Assembly: GCA_947311625.1 (NCBI GenBank)
Contig: CAMZKW010000001.1
Span: 15,776-79,775, forward strand
Reading direction: 5' to 3'
Length of the DNA: 64,000 bases
Source: Candidatus Campbellbacteria bacterium
GTDB taxonomy: Bacteria; Patescibacteriota; Minisyncoccia; Phycocordibacterales; GCA-2747955
Shown: in pieces, positions 2,501 through 47,904 of the stretch
Layout of the letters: each line of letters opens with the position of its first letter
Position numbering within the stretch: the first letter of the stretch is position 1
Notes under the pieces: model-generated
The model's input: only the letters and a program-made list of their open reading frames with translations
Database searches by the model: none
Told to the model about the DNA's origin: nothing
Program-made: the position numbers and the translations under genes

Positions 2501-2625
2501 TTTTGGATTATAACATAAGTTAAATTTTCAACACCCCAGGGGGTCATTTCATTTTCAACACCCGGGGTGGGGTGTTATTTTTAAAATAAAAAAAGACACT
2601 CTGGTGTGTTAAAATGTTTTAAGAT

Positions 2626-2955
2626 TTAGAATAGATTGAAATATTTTATAATTGAAACAATTGCAATTGCTCCCCAGAAGGCTTCTAAAAATAAATTTGA
2701 TCAATTTCTATCAACCCAAACTCTGATAGCTAAAAGAATTGCAGCGATTAAATTTAATATTGGATATAAAATATTTGATGATTCAATATAACCAAGAGAA
2801 TTTAAGCCATAGGCTAAAATTAAAAGAATTGTTCCTGCTCAACCAATAATTTTTACTTCTAAACTTGCAGAACTGTTTTTTACTTTTTTTTCATCTGTTT
2901 TTGGAGCAGGATTTTGCTTCGCAAAATCCTGCTCCATATTTTTATTTTCTTCCAT
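2626..2955 (-). CDS. small 3-TM membrane protein, 109 aa, two in-frame TGA
   Basis: Hand translation gives MEENKNMEQDFAKQNPAPK...IIGWAGTILLILAYGL...RVWVDRNW...; 330 nt from ATG to TAA. Confidence 0.45.
2903..2935. repeat. 33-nt perfect palindrome ggagcaggattttgc/ttc/gcaaaatcctgctcc inside the 5' end of CDS 2626..2955
   Basis: 15-bp arms read directly. It encodes EQDFAKQNPAP in frame. The arm motif gcaggattttg recurs in the leader hairpins at 10678 and 54640. Confidence 0.8.
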
Positions 2956-3062: not shown

Positions 3063-3117
3063 TCAATAGTATCTTCTTTTTTTAAAGATGGTACAAAATT
3101 TTTAAAAGGAGGATATT

Positions 3118-3213
3118 ATGCGATCAAAACAACTTCTTATTGATTTGACAATCGGTCGTGGCTCTGGAATCACTGATAGTCAATTTGTATCGGCTGTATC
3201 GGTTACTGTCTAA
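3118..3213 (+). CDS. orphan 31-aa peptide MRSKQLLIDLTIGRGSGITDSQFVSAVSVTV behind a strong SD
   Basis: aaaaggaggatattATG. GC-richer than the flanks. A second SD (gaaaggaggatatc) with a mini-ORF follows at 3264. Confidence 0.35.
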   Translation: MRSKQLLIDLTIGRGSGITDSQFVSAVSVTV

Positions 3214-3328
3214 ATGCCAAAAAGGCAAGGTGCCAAAAAAAATAAAAAAGAAAGGAGGATATCATGATGCCTAGAGATCCCCCTTTGGGGTAAAATGTAT
3301 GAATTACAATTAGTGATTCTTTAATAAT

Positions 3329-3396
3329 GAAAAAAACAAGCCTAAAGCTTGGTTTTTTCTTTTTTGGGGTTGGCGGCGGCGTAGCCGCCGCCAACC
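3329..3396. terminator. composite hairpin element, copy 2: AT-flanked terminator hairpin plus GC palindrome ggttggcggcggc/gta/gccgccgccaacc
   Basis: The first hairpin has A-run/T-run flanks, so it is probably bidirectional. The 13-bp GC palindrome (3368..3396) lies 18 nt past the tsaD stop. Confidence 0.55.
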
Positions 3397-3413: not shown

Positions 3414-4616
3414 CTATTCTTTTATTTTACAAGTCATTTTTAATTTTAAATTCCCAAAAACCTTTGTTGGTTTTTTAAGATAATCTCCTTTTTTTAGTCT
3501 GTAAAATCCAGCCAAGGCAATCATTAAACCATTGTCACCGGTATATTTTTTATCTGGTAAAAAGACTTCTAAATTTTGAAATTCTTTTTCTAATTTTTTG
3601 AAATCCTTTCTTAATCGGTTATTTGCCGAAACTCCACCTCCAATAATTAAATTTTTGATTTGGTATTTTTTGATAGCTTTTTTTGTTTTTTTAATTAAAA
3701 CTTCTGAAACAGCATTTTCAAATTCCGCCGCTAATTCTTGCTTGAATTTTTGATCATTTTTTTTTCTTTCTCTAACTAGATATAAAACTGCAGTTTTAAG
3801 GCCTGAGAATGAAAAATCAAAATTATCTTTATTTAGCATTGGACGGGGGAGTTGGAGCGGCGGCGTAGCCGCCGCTCCATTTTCTTTCTTCCACTCCTCA
3901 GCCAATTTTGAAATTTTTGGACCACCGGGATAATCAATTCCAATTAATCGAGCAGTTTTATCATAGGCCTCACCAACAGCATCATCTAAAGTTTGTCCTA
4001 GAAGCTCATAATTCATTTCTGATTTAATCAAAATTAATTCTGTATGTCCACCAGAAATTAAGAGTGAAATAGTTGGGTATTTTAATTTTGCCACCTCAAA
4101 AATATTTTTTTCTTTGGATTTTTGAATTAAAGAAGAGAAAATATGACCTTCCATATGATTGGTGGGAATAATTTTTATTTTTCAAATTTCAGCCAAGGCC
4201 TTGGCAAAGTTAAACCCTGTTCAAAGTGACATTTCTAAGCCTGGTCCATAGGTTATGGCCACGGCTGACAATTTTGGTTTTTTATATTTTTCAAAAAAAT
4301 CGATTAAATTTTTTAAATTTTCTTCATCGCGGTTCAAAATTTTTTCTAACTTTTTTAATTCCTTTTTTTCTAATTTTTTTTCTTTTTTTCTTTTTTCTAA
4401 AAGTCCAGCCTTTTTAAGGGATTTTATAAAAATAGGGTAAAGGTTTTTTATATGCTCTCTTTTGGCTAAGGCAGGAAAAACTCCTCCATATTCTTTGTGT
4501 AAATCAATTTGAGATAAAACAATATCGGACAAAACTTCAAATTTATACTTTGACTTAAAATCAACAATAGAAATTGCAGTTTCATCGCAGGATGTTTCAA
4601 TGGCTAAAATTTTCAT
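3414..4616 (-). CDS. tsaD: tRNA N6-threonylcarbamoyladenosine synthase TsaD, 400 aa, two in-frame TGA
   Basis: MKILAIETSCDETA..., YGPGLEMSL-W-TGFNFAKALAEI-W-KIKIIPTNHMEGH, FDFSFSGLKTA. Junction 4155..4220 was translated by hand. Confidence 0.9.
3854..3878. repeat. 25-nt GC palindrome ggagcggcggc/gta/gccgccgctcc in frame inside tsaD
   Basis: It encodes GAAATPPL just before the conserved LPRPM. The core gcggcggcgtagccgccgc is identical to the intergenic copy at 3372..3390. Confidence 0.85.
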
Positions 4617-10635: not shown

Positions 10636-10907
10636 GGATGGCTTTGCTTCGCAAAGCCATCCAATCAAAATATAGTTGAGAAGCAGGATTTTGAAGAAAA
10701 ATATTTTGAAAACACAACCAACTCAAAATATTTTTCCTCAAAATCCTGCTTCTCAGCAGAATGATGGTAATCCATTCCAATTTTTATTGTTCATTGATGT
10801 CCTGCTCGGACGGAGAACTCAGGCAACCCTGCTCTATGGGTATAAAGATTTTGTGCATATGGGAGCACTGGTAAAAAATTCCCTAGGCTTTTAAGGAGGC
10901 CGAAAAA
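10636..10907 (+). promoter_or_regulatory. about 270-nt structured 5' leader of the 589-aa orphan gene
   Basis: GC hairpin ggatggctttgc/ttc/gcaaagccatcc (10636..10662). 32-bp hairpin at 10678..10754 with one mismatch. SD ttaaggaggccgaaaaaATG. Confidence 0.55.
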
Positions 10908-28919: not shown

Positions 28920-28934
28920 AAAGAAAAAATAAAA

Positions 28935-29025
28935 AAAGAGCGCGCCTTCGGCGCGCTCTTTTTATAAAAAATTTATACACAACTTTGTCAATATTCTATT
29001 GACAAAAGAAAAAAACGATTATAAT
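28935..29025 (+). repeat. terminator-promoter module, copy A: hairpin aaagagcgcgcc/ttc/ggcgcgctcttt plus ttatacaca box plus ctattgaca, 15-nt spacer, tataat
   Basis: About 90 nt align with 40345..40439 with few substitutions. TTGACA at 28999..29004 and TATAAT at 29020..29025. Confidence 0.7.
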
Positions 29026-40313: not shown

Positions 40314-40344
40314 AAAATCAAATATGTTTTTTGAAAAATAATAA

Positions 40345-40439
40345 AAAAGAGCGCGCCTTCGGCGCGCTCTTTTTAAAATAAAAAACTTATACATAGCTTT
40401 ATCAATATACTATTGACAAAAAAAAAAAACGATTATAAT
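40345..40439 (+). repeat. terminator-promoter module, copy B (paralog of 28935..29025)
   Basis: aaaagagcgcgcc/ttc/ggcgcgctctttt, ttatacata box, TTGACA at 40413..40418, TATAAT at 40434..40439. Confidence 0.7.
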
Positions 40440-47299: not shown

Positions 47300-47842
47300 A
47301 TGATAGAAAACTTTGAACTAAATAAAAATTTATTTTATTGAATAAACTCTTTTGCTGGAAAAAATGATTTTTTGGATAAATTATTTGTATTTTTAGCAGA
47401 AGATTTAATATATATATTAATATTTTTATTTATAATATATTTTTCTAAACAAATTTGAAGAGATAAAAAGATTGAATTAATTGAATTTATAATTTATTTT
47501 TCAACATCAATTTTAGCATGAATTATGGCAAAGATTATAAAAATATCTTTTCCCACAGAAAGACCATTTTCAGCACTTGAGAGTGTTGTGAAATTAAGTA
47601 ATGAATCAATAATGTCTTCTTTTCCATCGGGTCATTCAACTTTATCTTTTGCTTTGGCAGTTTCAGTGTTAATTTATAATAAAAAAATTGGAATATTATT
47701 TTTAGCCTTAGCTTTTTTGATTGCAATTTCAAGATCTTTAGTTGGGGTTCATTATCCTCTAGATACAATTGTAGGTGCTATTTTGGGTATTTTGATTGCA
47801 TTAGCGTTAGGTAATTATTTAAAAAATAAATATGTAAAATAA
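47300..47842 (+). CDS. PAP2-family phosphatase (undecaprenyl-diphosphatase-like), 180 aa, three in-frame TGA
   Basis: SFPSGHS ... SRSLVGVHYPLD. Confidence 0.75.
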
Positions 47843-47875
47843 AATAAGAGCGCGCCGAAGGCGCGCTCTTATTTT
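47841..47875. terminator. hairpin aaaataagagcgcgcc/gaa/ggcgcgctcttatttt (inverted copy of the 28935-type core)
   Basis: 16-bp stem with A/T flanks. Probably bidirectional. Confidence 0.7.
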
Positions 47876-47904
47876 AATTTTATCTACTATGTTATAATAG
47901 AAAT

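What the first reader, a model, noticed from the sequence alone, without database searches (positions are those of the whole stretch)
3854..3878. GC palindromes inserted in frame inside protein-coding genes
The 25-nt palindrome ggagcggcggc-gta-gccgccgctcc sits inside tsaD. It is translated as GAAATPPL immediately before the conserved LPRPM motif. Its 19-nt core is identical to an intergenic copy 460 nt away (3372..3390). A second case is the 33-nt palindrome at 2903..2935, which encodes EQDFAKQNPAP at the N-terminus of the membrane protein 2626..2955. Its arms (gcaggattttg) recur in the cassette leader hairpins. In-frame palindromic repeat insertion is established for Rickettsia palindromic elements. 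Seeing the same behaviour here suggests an active or recently active miniature palindromic element family.
Basis: partly seen in the sequence, partly recalled or inferred. Interest (0 to 1): 0.65.

Follow-up and report, generated by a model that had tools for sequence, protein, structure and literature searches.

The report
Translated hairpin palindromes inside tsaD
A tiny uncultured (CPR/Paceibacteria) bacterium carries perfect hairpin-forming DNA palindromes, of the same kind it uses as transcription stop signals between genes, inside the reading frames of the essential gene tsaD and about a dozen other genes, and they look more like by-products of DNA copying errors (template switching) than like a jumping element.

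Summary
GGAGCGGCGGC-GTA-GCCGCCGCTCC lies at 3854..3878 (pairing extends to 3853..3879) in frame in tsaD (3414..4616, minus strand, UGA=Trp). Its 19-nt core occurs only twice in the 624-kb genome; the other copy lies 18 nt past the tsaD stop. The 2903..2935 palindrome is also real.

Both belong to a class of 105 perfect hairpins tipped by GC-GNA-GC, the "mini-hairpin" motif (about 2 expected by chance). Of these, 76 are intergenic and 47 of the 76 look like terminators. About 15 lie inside real genes.

- **Extra residues:** the tsaD copy sits in a length-variable coil before LPRPM and adds 5-8 residues. The sister lineage lacks it, while a congener has a different perfect palindrome at the same codons.
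- **No length change:** the ABC-F and MiaA palindromes add nothing. Their arms are native codons, and congeners show compensated arm changes and a flipped loop, the published signs of template switching.
- **No mobilising enzyme found:** no target-site duplication and no Ssn-type nuclease, and the one RAYT has different hairpins.
- **Wider pattern:** across 103 CPR tsaD genes, palindromes are 4-8 times denser than in neighbouring genes.

A role as an antisense terminator is possible but untested.

Verdict: real; a new variant of known coding palindromes; moderately interesting.

The parts
3853..3879 (-). Perfect palindrome TGGAGCGGCGGC-GTA-GCCGCCGCTCCA in frame in tsaD. It encodes (N)GAAATPPLQ just before LPRPM. 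On the + (antisense) strand it is followed by TTTTCTTTCT.
   Evidence: Fold energy -26 to -32 kcal/mol, z about -5.8. Flagged as a + strand terminator-like site.
3414..4616 (-). tsaD (tRNA N6-adenosine threonylcarbamoyltransferase), 400 codons with two in-frame UGA (Trp) codons.
   Evidence: AF2 model has mean pLDDT 90.5.
3368..3396 (.). Intergenic GC hairpin GGTTGGCGGCGGC-GTA-GCCGCCGCCAACC, 18 nt past the tsaD stop. It shares the genome-unique 19-mer with the tsaD palindrome.
   Evidence: Absent from the sister lineage L031 within the 50 nt available downstream of its tsaD.
3337..3366 (+). AT-richer hairpin CAAGC-CTAAA-GCTTG plus a T-run. It is the likely terminator of the small + strand ORFs that converge on tsaD.
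2902..2936 (-). Perfect palindrome TGGAGCAGGATTTTGC-TTC-GCAAAATCCTGCTCCA in the N-terminal tail of a small membrane protein (M-EQDFAKQNPAP). It belongs to the ATTTTGC-GNA-GCAAAAT sub-family.
2626..2955 (-). 109-codon membrane-protein gene. Its N-terminal tail is 8-21 residues longer than in orthologues from G001, G003 and G004.
10680..10752 (.). Long imperfect hairpin (32-nt arms, 1 mismatch) upstream of the 589-codon gene. Its arms share GCAGGATTTTG with the 2903..2935 palindrome.
10637..10661 (.). GGATGGCTTTGC-TTC-GCAAAGCCATCC, another hairpin with the GC-TTC-GC tip, in the same leader.
28933..28963 (.). AAAAAGAGCGCGCC-TTC-GGCGCGCTCTTTTT, an intergenic bidirectional terminator-like member of the commonest sub-family. 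An identical copy lies at 40344..40374.
47840..47876 (.). TAAAATAAGAGCGCGCC-GAA-GGCGCGCTCTTATTTTA, an intergenic terminator-like member with the loop in the opposite orientation.

Best explanation
The tsaD palindrome is one of about 15 translated copies of this organism's standard stable hairpin: a G+C-rich or ATTTTGC-type stem closed by the GC-GNA-GC 'mini-hairpin' tip. Between genes this hairpin serves mainly as an intrinsic terminator.

The copies inside genes are most likely made and kept perfect by DNA-polymerase template switching at inverted repeats, not by transposition.

1. The nascent strand folds back, or pairs with a nearby hairpin, and copies it. This either adds an inverted copy of neighbouring native codons (an insertion, as in TsaD and protein tails) or overwrites a near-palindromic stretch of native codons without changing its length (ABC-F, MiaA).
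2. Later switches copy a change from one arm to the other and can flip the loop.
3. Purifying selection leaves only copies that stay in frame, lie in tolerant coils, linkers or tails, and do not place a U-tract after the hairpin on the sense strand.

For the window's tsaD copy, the outer stem (CGCTCC) corresponds to the native Ser/Pro-Leu-Pro codons. The 19-nt core plus loop looks templated from, or together with, the terminator hairpin 484 nt away.

Shown: the anatomy, the family, the indel pattern, and the compensated changes. Inferred: the template-switch mechanism and the direction of copying.
For: **The family**
- 105 GNA/TNC-tipped perfect hairpins against about 2 expected. GCGAAGC occurs 66 times against 9 expected.
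- 76 of 105 are intergenic in a genome that is about 85% coding. 47 of the 76 have A/T-tract flanks like terminators.

**Palindromes that are not insertions**
- ABC-F: GAAGAAATTTTGC-GAA-GCAAAATTTCTTC in G000, GAGGAAATTTTGC-TTC-GCAAAATTTCCTC in G002 and GAGGAAATTTTCC-GAA-GGAAAATTTCCTC in G001. All have the same length as palindrome-free orthologues. Every arm change is compensated, and one loop is inverted.
- MiaA shows the same pattern. G000 and G008 share 30 identical nt, with no length change.

**Arms made from native codons**
- In L002 and L046 the right arm is the native ...SLP / ASKYKLP coding sequence and the left arm is its reverse complement.

**History of the tsaD copy**
- G001 has GGGAGCGACAGC-TTC-GCTGTCGCTCCC at the same codons: two doubly compensated pairs and a different loop.
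- The sister lineage L031 (99/98 support) lacks both the internal and the downstream GC hairpin.
- The 19-mer is unique to this pair, and the nearest hairpin is also the best match.

**Literature**
- Arm homogenisation and spacer inversion are the published signatures of template switching, including in coding DNA (PMC8604942). Perfect inverted repeats are preferentially restored (PMC5941160).
- GCGNAGC DNA is an exceptionally stable hairpin nucleus (PMC13037366, PMC3201870).

**Placement and possible mobilising enzymes**
- The insertion lies in a coil (residues 247-267) after helix 231-246 of a confident model, in a loop of very variable length.
- No GIY-YIG protein, the SRM motif is at chance level, and the RAYT hairpins are different.
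Against: - Many copies are identical over 21-27 nt at unlinked loci. The ATTTTGC sub-family is expanded in only two lineages (16 copies in G000, 15 in G008, 0-6 elsewhere). Both look like dispersal of an element.
- G002's TsaD has a clean 7-codon insertion of a palindrome that resembles the genus's commonest terminator stem.
- As a general rule, the best match of an in-gene hairpin is not significantly nearby (3 of 15 against 1.04 expected, p=0.08).
- Strain variants in two metagenomes each carry one uncompensated C>T in the palindrome, so homogenisation is not fast.
- No experiment or polymorphism series shows a switch happening.
- Compensated changes would also arise under selection for a functional hairpin.
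Confidence: 0.5

Rival explanations
1. A non-autonomous mobile palindromic element (RPE-like, REP-like or a very small MITE) is mobilised in trans. It inserts throughout the genome and survives in genes only where it stays in frame in tolerant loops.
For: - Dispersed identical copies, for example AAAGAGCGCGCC-TTC-GGCGCGCTCTTT at 4 loci (about 8 counting close variants).
- Lineage-specific expansion: 16 and 15 copies in G000 and G008, 0-6 in 39 other relatives.
- Insertion-type length differences in TsaD: +5 residues against the sister lineage, an 8-residue gap against PDB 8iey, and a clean 7-codon insertion in G002. The membrane-protein tail is also longer than in orthologues.
- The three GC palindromes in the genus's tsaD genes all begin GAGCG(G/A)C, like the commonest terminator stem GAGCGCGCC.
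- A Y1/RAYT transposase exists in the genome.
Against: - No target-site duplication or conserved flank at any in-gene copy.
- The RAYT is flanked by unrelated AATTTTCAACA... hairpins that occur at only 3 loci.
- No GIY-YIG/Ssn protein is present, and the SRM motif is at chance level.
- The ABC-F and MiaA copies cause no length change, and their arms are native codons.
- The tsaD palindromes of G001 and G002 are essentially single-copy in their own genomes.
- Only the 7-nt tip is shared across sub-families, which fits convergence on the most stable hairpin nucleus.
Confidence: 0.22
2. Whatever its origin, the tsaD hairpin is kept because it works as an intrinsic terminator for the antisense strand. 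It would stop transcription that enters tsaD from the convergent unit downstream, protecting tsaD expression from antisense RNA and polymerase collisions.
For: - On the + strand the hairpin is followed by TTTTCTTTCT and is called terminator-like.
- In G001 the homologous hairpin is followed by T8 on the antisense strand. It is the first and strongest terminator-like site after a convergent 473-codon gene that ends about 15 nt from the tsaD stop.
- G002 and G004 also have convergent ORFs after tsaD.
- 7 of 15 in-gene hairpins have at least 7 T in 8 on the antisense side, against 4.5% of random coding positions (p about 2e-6). Only 2 have even 5 T on the sense side.
- Both strain variants (C3870T, C3869T) keep G-U pairing in + strand RNA but would give C-A in the mRNA.
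Against: - The sister lineage L031 and several congeners do without the hairpin.
- The best-conserved coding palindromes (ABC-F, MiaA) have no antisense T-tail.
- A-rich Lys/Glu/Asn codons beside tolerant loops, plus selection against sense-strand terminators, would give the same asymmetry without any function.
- Two of two G-U-compatible variants is only p=0.25.
- In the window, two other hairpins already stand between the convergent unit and tsaD.
- No RNA data exist; only DNA runs hold this sequence.
Confidence: 0.2
3. The hairpins act in the sense mRNA or in the protein: a ribosome-pausing or mRNA-stability element, or a selected peptide loop in TsaD.
For: - Palindromes recur at five discrete TsaD sites in many CPR lineages.
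- The palindrome at the membrane-protein gene lies 19 nt after the start codon.
- The encoded peptides avoid one of the three frames (0 of about 10 in the Cys-containing frame).
Against: - Only about 17% of CPR tsaD genes have excess structure at sites B or C against synonymous recoding. The median z is near 0, so no conserved structure is required.
- The encoded peptides differ completely between lineages.
- Loop orientation is mixed on the sense strand.
Confidence: 0.06

Closest known systems
Template-switch homogenisation and spacer inversion of short inverted repeats (Abraham & Hazkani-Covo 2021, PMC8604942; Lavi et al. 2018, PMC5941160; quasipalindrome mutagenesis in E. coli)
   Same: Perfect short inverted repeats inside coding DNA. 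Changes appear on both arms at once. The spacer (loop) inverts (GAA to TTC). Several neighbouring amino acids are replaced together. Perfect repeats persist longer than expected.
   Different: Here the repeats share one stereotyped tip (GC-GNA-GC). They belong to the same sequence families as the organism's terminators. They reach 12-16 bp arms in a 27% G+C, 0.6-Mb genome, and they concentrate in one gene (tsaD) across a whole radiation. No event has been caught in the act.
Rickettsia palindromic elements (RPE; Ogata et al. 2000, as reviewed in PMC10969869)
   Same: Palindromic repeats found both between genes and in frame inside genes, including essential ones. They are translated as extra loop residues. 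No transposase of their own is known.
   Different: RPEs are 100-150 bp elements with recognisable family consensus sequences. These are 25-35 nt hairpins, some of which add no residues and are built from native codons. The phylum is different.
Coding palindromes in Nematomorpha mitochondrial genes (Mikhailov et al. 2019, PMC6649704)
   Same: Perfect inverted repeats are superimposed on functional coding sequence, with both arms translated. Protein and DNA structure are preserved together. This is the same situation as the ABC-F and MiaA cases.
   Different: Those repeats are up to 284 bp, in animal mitochondria, and cover conserved regions. Here the arms are short and mostly lie in variable loops of a bacterial genome.
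REP/BIME elements with RAYT transposases, and NTS/SRM hairpins with Ssn nucleases (PMC11893778)
   Same: Short (20-50 nt) dispersed hairpin repeats, mostly extragenic, often doubling as terminators. The NTS hairpin also has a GCG..AGC-type tip.
   Different: The cognate enzyme test fails. No GIY-YIG protein is present, the SRM motif is at chance level, and the single RAYT is flanked by a different hairpin. There is no oriented conserved flank such as the GTC head of SRMs or the GTAG of REPs.
Mini-hairpin DNA d(GCGNAGC) (Hirao and co-workers; PMC13037366, PMC3201870)
   Same: The tip of 105 hairpins is exactly this motif with N = A, T, G or C. GCGAAGC is 7-fold over-represented.
   Different: Known natural examples are at phage and plasmid replication or priming sites and promoters. 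They are not known as the standard tip of a bacterium's terminators, nor inside reading frames.

Membership tests
Rickettsia palindromic elements (RPE) | Element of about 100-150 bp with a family consensus and long terminal complementarity | tested here: not met
   Units are 25-35 nt. Only the 7-nt tip and short stems are shared between sub-families.
Rickettsia palindromic elements (RPE) | Copies inserted in frame in protein genes, adding residues relative to orthologues | tested here: inconclusive
   Met for TsaD (+5 residues against L031, 8-residue gap against 8iey), for G002 TsaD (+7) and for the membrane-protein tail. Not met for ABC-F and MiaA, which show no length change.
REP elements / REPINs with RAYT | The cognate RAYT gene is flanked by copies of the same repeat family | tested here: not met
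   The one Y1_Tnp hit (C2:32938-33231) is flanked by AATTTTCAACA...GTCCTTTTT hairpins. These are unlike the GNA-tipped family and are found at only 3 loci.
REP elements / REPINs with RAYT | Short imperfect palindromes, high copy number, extragenic | tested here: inconclusive
   105 copies, 72% intergenic. However, the stems are perfect, about 15 copies are intragenic, and most look like terminators.
Ssn-related motifs (NTS/SRM) with Ssn GIY-YIG nucleases | An Ssn (GIY-YIG_unchar_3) gene is present in the genome | tested here: not met
   No PF01541 match at E<=0.01 in the 92.6%-complete assembly. The control search hit 13 of 14 reference genomes.
Ssn-related motifs (NTS/SRM) with Ssn GIY-YIG nucleases | Repeats match the published SRM pattern HGTCWY...RNCYNB | tested here: not met
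   1 match in the genome, against 0-1 in shuffles.
Intrinsic (Rho-independent) terminators | G+C-rich stem-loop followed directly by a U-tract, downstream of a gene | tested here: met
   Met for the class: 47 of 76 intergenic members have T and/or A tracts in the terminator arrangement, and only 2 have the reverse. For the tsaD and 2902..2936 copies it is met only on the antisense (+) strand. Termination itself was not tested.
Template-switch-shaped inverted repeats | Arm homogenisation: differences between lineages present on both arms at once | tested here: met
   ABC-F in G000, G001 and G002: 3 compensated differences and 0 uncompensated. tsaD in G000 against G001: 2 compensated pairs. Sample sizes are small, and selection on a structure would give the same result.
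Template-switch-shaped inverted repeats | Spacer (loop) inversion between lineages or copies | tested here: met
   ABC-F has GAA in G000 and TTC in G002 with the same arms. Genome-wide, loops occur in both orientations (34 GNA and 42 TNC among intergenic copies).
Template-switch-shaped inverted repeats | A switch event observed directly (multi-nucleotide change on a dated branch or in a mutation-accumulation line) | not testable with these tools
   Only contig-level DNA data from 6 runs are available. Two strain variants show single uncompensated C>T changes.

The most novel reading that the evidence does not exclude
tsaD may be a radiation-wide, gene-specific sink for perfect coding palindromes because the hairpins act as cis-elements. 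Examples would be embedded antisense terminators or expression sensors of this essential tRNA-modification gene. On this reading they are kept as hairpins by selection while their sequence turns over, rather than being tolerated debris.

The evidence does not exclude this:
- In 103 CPR tsaD genes, stems of at least 10 bp number 45, against 1.9 in synonymous shuffles.
- They are 4-8 times denser than in neighbouring genes.
- They fall at five discrete sites.
- In this genus the GC palindromes face convergent genes and carry antisense T-tracts.
Probability: 0.15. Interest if true: 0.8.

Novelty: new variant of a known kind. Interest (0 to 1): 0.55.

Why it matters
The finding shows a bacterium in which DNA-level hairpin symmetry dictates runs of amino acids inside essential and housekeeping proteins. 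Examples are ILRSK, ILLRK and IFRRK at one ABC-F site, and GAAATPPLQ in TsaD.

If template switching is the cause, three things follow.
- Apparent "compensatory evolution", "parallel evolution" and clustered non-synonymous changes in CPR genes need no adaptive explanation.
- Palindrome creation would be a real source of loop expansion in the proteins of these minimal genomes.
- The organism's terminators would share the exceptionally stable GCGNAGC mini-hairpin tip, which has so far been known from phage origins.

The concentration in tsaD is seen here independently in 103 genes and also noted repeatedly elsewhere in this scan. It is unexplained, and I did not find it in the searchable literature. 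It gives a concrete target for testing whether coding hairpins have a regulatory role.

Tried and rejected
- **RAYT as driver:** rejected. Its flanking hairpins (AATTTTCAACA...) differ from the family and occur at only 3 loci.
There is no GIY-YIG domain and the SRM motif is at chance level.
- **Known RNA family:** none at either palindrome in Rfam at E<=0.1.
- **Local copying as a general rule:** not significant. 3 of 15 in-gene hairpins have their best match within 10 kb, against 1.04 expected, p=0.08. Across all similar hairpin pairs, 4.5% are near each other against 4.0% of all pairs.
- **A universally conserved structure at the TsaD sites:** rejected. Against synonymous recoding the median z is -0.3 to -0.4, and only about 17% of genes fall below -2.
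- **RNA evidence:** no RNA runs hold this sequence, so termination could not be tested.
- **Several apparent in-ORF hairpins in the window** (25460, 40983, 42344): these lie before the true start (MraZ) or at the stop codon and were dropped.
- **DNA uptake sequence or operator site:** considered and set aside. There are too few copies, and only the hairpin tip is shared between sub-families.
- **Table 25 (UGA=Gly):** I used it at first. UGA=Trp fits better, because L031 has TGA where the window has TGG at W244, in line with earlier notes.
Full report
**1. What is there**

The window is C1:15776-79775 of a 624-kb, 22-contig, 27% G+C assembly. Genes are open only if UGA is read as sense. Earlier notes of this scan identify the organism as a Paceibacteria (CPR) bacterium that reads UGA as Trp. 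My own data agree: the closest TsaD relative has TGA where the window has TGG.

- tsaD occupies 3414..4616 on the minus strand and has 400 codons. It matches solved TsaD structures at E=2.5e-76.
- The palindrome GGAGCGGCGGC-GTA-GCCGCCGCTCC is at 3854..3878, and pairing extends to 3853..3879.
- It is translated as N-GAAATPPLQ-LPRPM.
- Its 19-nt core occurs exactly twice in the genome. The other copy is at 3373-3391, inside the hairpin 3368..3396 that starts 18 nt after the tsaD stop.
- The second palindrome (2903..2935; 16-nt arms at 2902..2936) encodes M-EQDFAKQNPAP near the start of the 109-codon membrane-protein gene 2626..2955.
- Its 11-mer GCAGGATTTTG recurs in the long hairpin at 10680..10752.

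Both palindromes fold far better than shuffled sequence (z from -5.7 to -9.8).

**2. The family they belong to**

The genome holds 492 perfect triloop hairpins with stems of at least 7 bp. Of these, 105 have a C-G closing pair and a GNA or TNC loop, which is the motif GC-GNA-GC. Shuffled sequence gives about 2. The heptamer GCGAAGC occurs 66 times against 9 expected. This motif is the 'mini-hairpin DNA' known for exceptional stability (PMC13037366; PMC3201870).

- 76 of the 105 are intergenic, although about 85% of the genome is coding.
- 47 of those 76 carry A and/or T tracts in the arrangement of uni- or bidirectional intrinsic terminators. Only 2 have the reverse arrangement.
- Loops occur in both orientations: 34 GNA and 42 TNC.
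- Stems fall into repeated sub-families with copies identical over 21-27 nt at unlinked loci. An example is AAAGAGCGCGCC-TTC-GGCGCGCTCTTT.
- A second sub-family, (G/A)AATTTTGC-GNA-GCAAAATT, has 21 copies, about half of them inside ORFs. They are read as FAKQN, FASQN or FAEQN in one frame and ILRSK in another.
- After I removed spurious or over-extended ORFs, about 15 hairpins lie inside real genes. These are TsaD, the membrane protein, ABC-F, MiaA, a UvrD/PcrA-like helicase, ApbE, a nuclease, an LTD protein, a coupling-protein tail and others.

**3. Insertion or not?**

*TsaD.*
- In 30 relatives' genomes and 80 metagenome loci, the stretch from YPGGP to PRPM varies from 25 to 69 residues.
- The window has 32 residues there. 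Its sister L031 (83% identity; sister with 99/98 support) has 27 and no palindrome: KNIS stands where the window has GAAATPPLQ.
- Against PDB 8iey, the alignment gap of 8 residues falls exactly on GAAATPPL.
- The AlphaFold model (mean pLDDT 90.5) puts the stretch in a coil (247-267) after helix 231-246.

*Membrane protein.* Orthologues have shorter, palindrome-free N-terminal tails.

*ABC-F and MiaA.* These palindromes add no residues. Orthologues without a palindrome have the same length. The arms are the native EEI.../...KIS codons, which are nearly self-complementary in an AT-rich code.

**4. How the palindromes change between relatives**

- **tsaD in G001 (70% identity).** It has a different perfect palindrome at the same codons, GGGAGCGACAGC-TTC-GCTGTCGCTCCC. 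Compared with the window this is two doubly compensated pairs and another loop.
- **Native-codon arms.** The right arm of the G001 palindrome is the native ...SLP(RPM) coding sequence and the left arm is its reverse complement. In L046, likewise, a 21-nt arm is the native ASKYKLP sequence.
- **tsaD in G004 and G002.** G004 has an unrelated AT-richer 13-bp palindrome at the site. G002 has none there, but has a clean 7-codon insertion (SDAFGVA) of GAGCGACGCC-TTC-GGCGTCGCTC in another loop.
- **ABC-F in G000, G002 and G001.** All three keep perfect 13-bp arms, with three compensated differences, no uncompensated difference, and one inverted loop. The peptide changes accordingly: ILRSK, ILLRK, IFRRK.
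- **MiaA in G000 and G008.** The proteins are 54% identical, yet they share 30 identical nucleotides across the palindrome.
- **Fit to the literature.** Arm homogenisation and spacer inversion are exactly the published outcomes of polymerase template switching between inverted-repeat arms, including in coding DNA (PMC8604942). Preferential restoration of perfect repeats has been inferred for Proteobacteria (PMC5941160).
- **Strains in runs X5 and X6.** Two related strains (about 89% identical in X5) keep the window's palindrome with one C>T each, at 3870 and 3869. The perfect symmetry can therefore decay.
- **A further relative in X5.** It has ...RKEKIMPEFK-LPRPM, with no palindrome (loose end).
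- **L031.** It lacks both the internal hairpin and the hairpin just downstream of tsaD. This links the two copies of the 19-mer to one lineage.

**5. Is a mobilising enzyme present?**

- The genome has one Y1/RAYT-type transposase. Its flanking hairpins (AATTTTCAACA-core-GTCCTTTTT) are unrelated and occur at only three loci, one of them at window 2521..2575.
- There is no GIY-YIG domain at all, so no Ssn nuclease and apparently no UvrC. The published SRM pattern occurs once, which is chance level (PMC11893778).
- None of the in-gene copies shows a target-site duplication.
- ExoVII large subunit is not found above the cut-off. From my own knowledge, ExoI and ExoVII restrain quasipalindrome template switching in E. 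coli, so a reduced nuclease set would fit a high switching rate. This is inference, and the assembly is only 92.6% complete.

**6. A possible function**

- Of 15 in-gene hairpins, 7 have at least 7 T in 8 after the stem on the antisense strand, against 4.5% of random coding positions (p about 2e-6). Only 2 reach even 5 T on the sense side.
- In G001 the homologous tsaD hairpin is followed by T8 on the antisense strand. It is the first and strongest terminator-like site after a convergent gene that ends about 15 nt from the tsaD stop.
- G002 and G004 also have convergent ORFs after tsaD. In the window, small + strand ORFs converge on tsaD.
- Both strain variants keep G-U pairing in + strand RNA only (2 of 2, p=0.25).
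- This fits an embedded antisense terminator. It equally fits selection against sense-strand terminators combined with A-rich Lys/Glu/Asn codons next to tolerant loops.
- ABC-F and MiaA lack such tails. No RNA data exist.

**7. The wider pattern**

- In 103 distinct CPR tsaD genes, perfect stems of at least 10 bp number 45, against 1.9 in synonymous-codon shuffles. Stems of at least 12 bp number 25 against 0.1.
- In 229 neighbouring ORFs (191 kb) the counts are 16 against 2.0 and 5 against 0. tsaD is therefore 4.3 to 7.7 times denser.
- The hits fall at five sites on the window's TsaD numbering: 60-109, 160-169 (right after HxxGH), 230-259 (this finding's site), 280-299 and 340-349.
- Only about 17% of genes have excess structure at sites B or C against synonymous recoding, compared with 2-6% at most control positions (14% at the N-terminal ETSCD control window). 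These are recurrent hot spots, not one conserved structure.
- Earlier notes of this scan report the same tsaD hot spot in other CPR genomes. I treated them as leads, and my counts are independent of them.
- I found no paper describing the pattern.

**8. Verdict**

There is a dispersed hairpin family with in-frame copies, and the TsaD copy sits in a variable loop.
- The best-supported mechanism, however, is creation and maintenance of the palindromes by template switching, seeded by the very stable GC-GNA-GC tip and sometimes templated from nearby terminators. Selection then filters for frame, position and strand (confidence 0.5).
- The main rivals are trans-mobilised insertion (0.22) and retention as an antisense terminator (0.2; this concerns function and is compatible with either origin).
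- This is a new variant of known coding palindromes, not a member of the RPE, REP/RAYT or Ssn/SRM systems.

Noticed in passing
L001-L110 (tsaD loci), mapped to window TsaD residues 60-109, 160-169, 230-259, 280-299, 340-349: Across 103 CPR tsaD genes, perfect palindromes cluster at five sites and are 4-8 times denser than in neighbouring genes. At site B the left arm is the conserved GH-IFSAL codons, and the right arm is its exact complement with lineage-specific sequence.
   Followed up: partly
L047, L063, L087/L088 (site A); L023, L046, L072 (site D); L004 (site C, degenerate): One palindrome type, ATTC(T/C)A(G/C)TRTTY-TGCA-..., recurs at different TsaD sites in different CPR lineages. Its peptides are HSSVLQNTRI, YSSILKNTRI and HSNILQNVGM. 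This looks more like a moving unit than an in-place origin.
   Followed up: no
G000 C6:13912-13940 (ABC-F) and C6:19914-19938 (MiaA); L112-L114, L128-L129: These coding palindromes cause no length change. Congeners keep perfect 13-bp arms through compensated changes and a GAA/TTC loop flip, and this changes the peptide (ILRSK, ILLRK, IFRRK).
   Followed up: yes
G000 C6:19255-20196 (miaA) against G008 C4:8440-9300: G000's MiaA is closer to that of another genus (G008, 54% identity) than to its congeners (46-51%). It lacks their 9-10 residue insert and shares an identical 30-nt palindrome with G008, which suggests possible gene transfer.
   Followed up: no
window 2521..2575: Two half-sites, AATTTTCAACACCCCAGGGGGTC and ATTTTCAACACCCGGGGTGGGGTGTT, match the hairpin heads that flank the genome's only Y1/RAYT transposase (C2:32636 and C2:33397).
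   Followed up: partly
window 3105..3300: Two tiny + strand ORFs (31 and 9 codons) each follow a strong AAAGGAGGATAT Shine-Dalgarno sequence. They converge on tsaD in a genome said to be mostly leaderless. Their function is unknown.
   Followed up: no
whole genome G000: The 92.6%-complete assembly has no GIY-YIG domain (so apparently no UvrC) and no ExoVII large subunit above the family cut-off. This hints at a reduced repair and nuclease set.
   Followed up: partly
window 3841..3897 in runs X1-X3: Logan contigs of the low-coverage source runs all break at the palindrome. This is an assembly effect that may hide such elements in metagenome assemblies.
   Followed up: no
relatives G000-G040: TTTGCGAAGCAAA occurs 16 times in G000, 15 in G008 (a different genus), 6 in G003 and 0-4 in the 38 other relatives searched. 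In G008 most copies are GGCGGATTTTGC-GAA-GCAAAATCCGCC between genes, often with T-runs before and A-runs after the stem.
   Followed up: partly
L031 codon aligned to window TsaD W244; tsaD TGA counts: TGA stands where the window has TGG. In-frame TGA codons in tsaD appear only in G000 and in three of its five congeners (G001, G002, G004), and not in the tsaD of other genera of the same family. This is consistent with a genus-level UGA=Trp recoding.
   Followed up: partly
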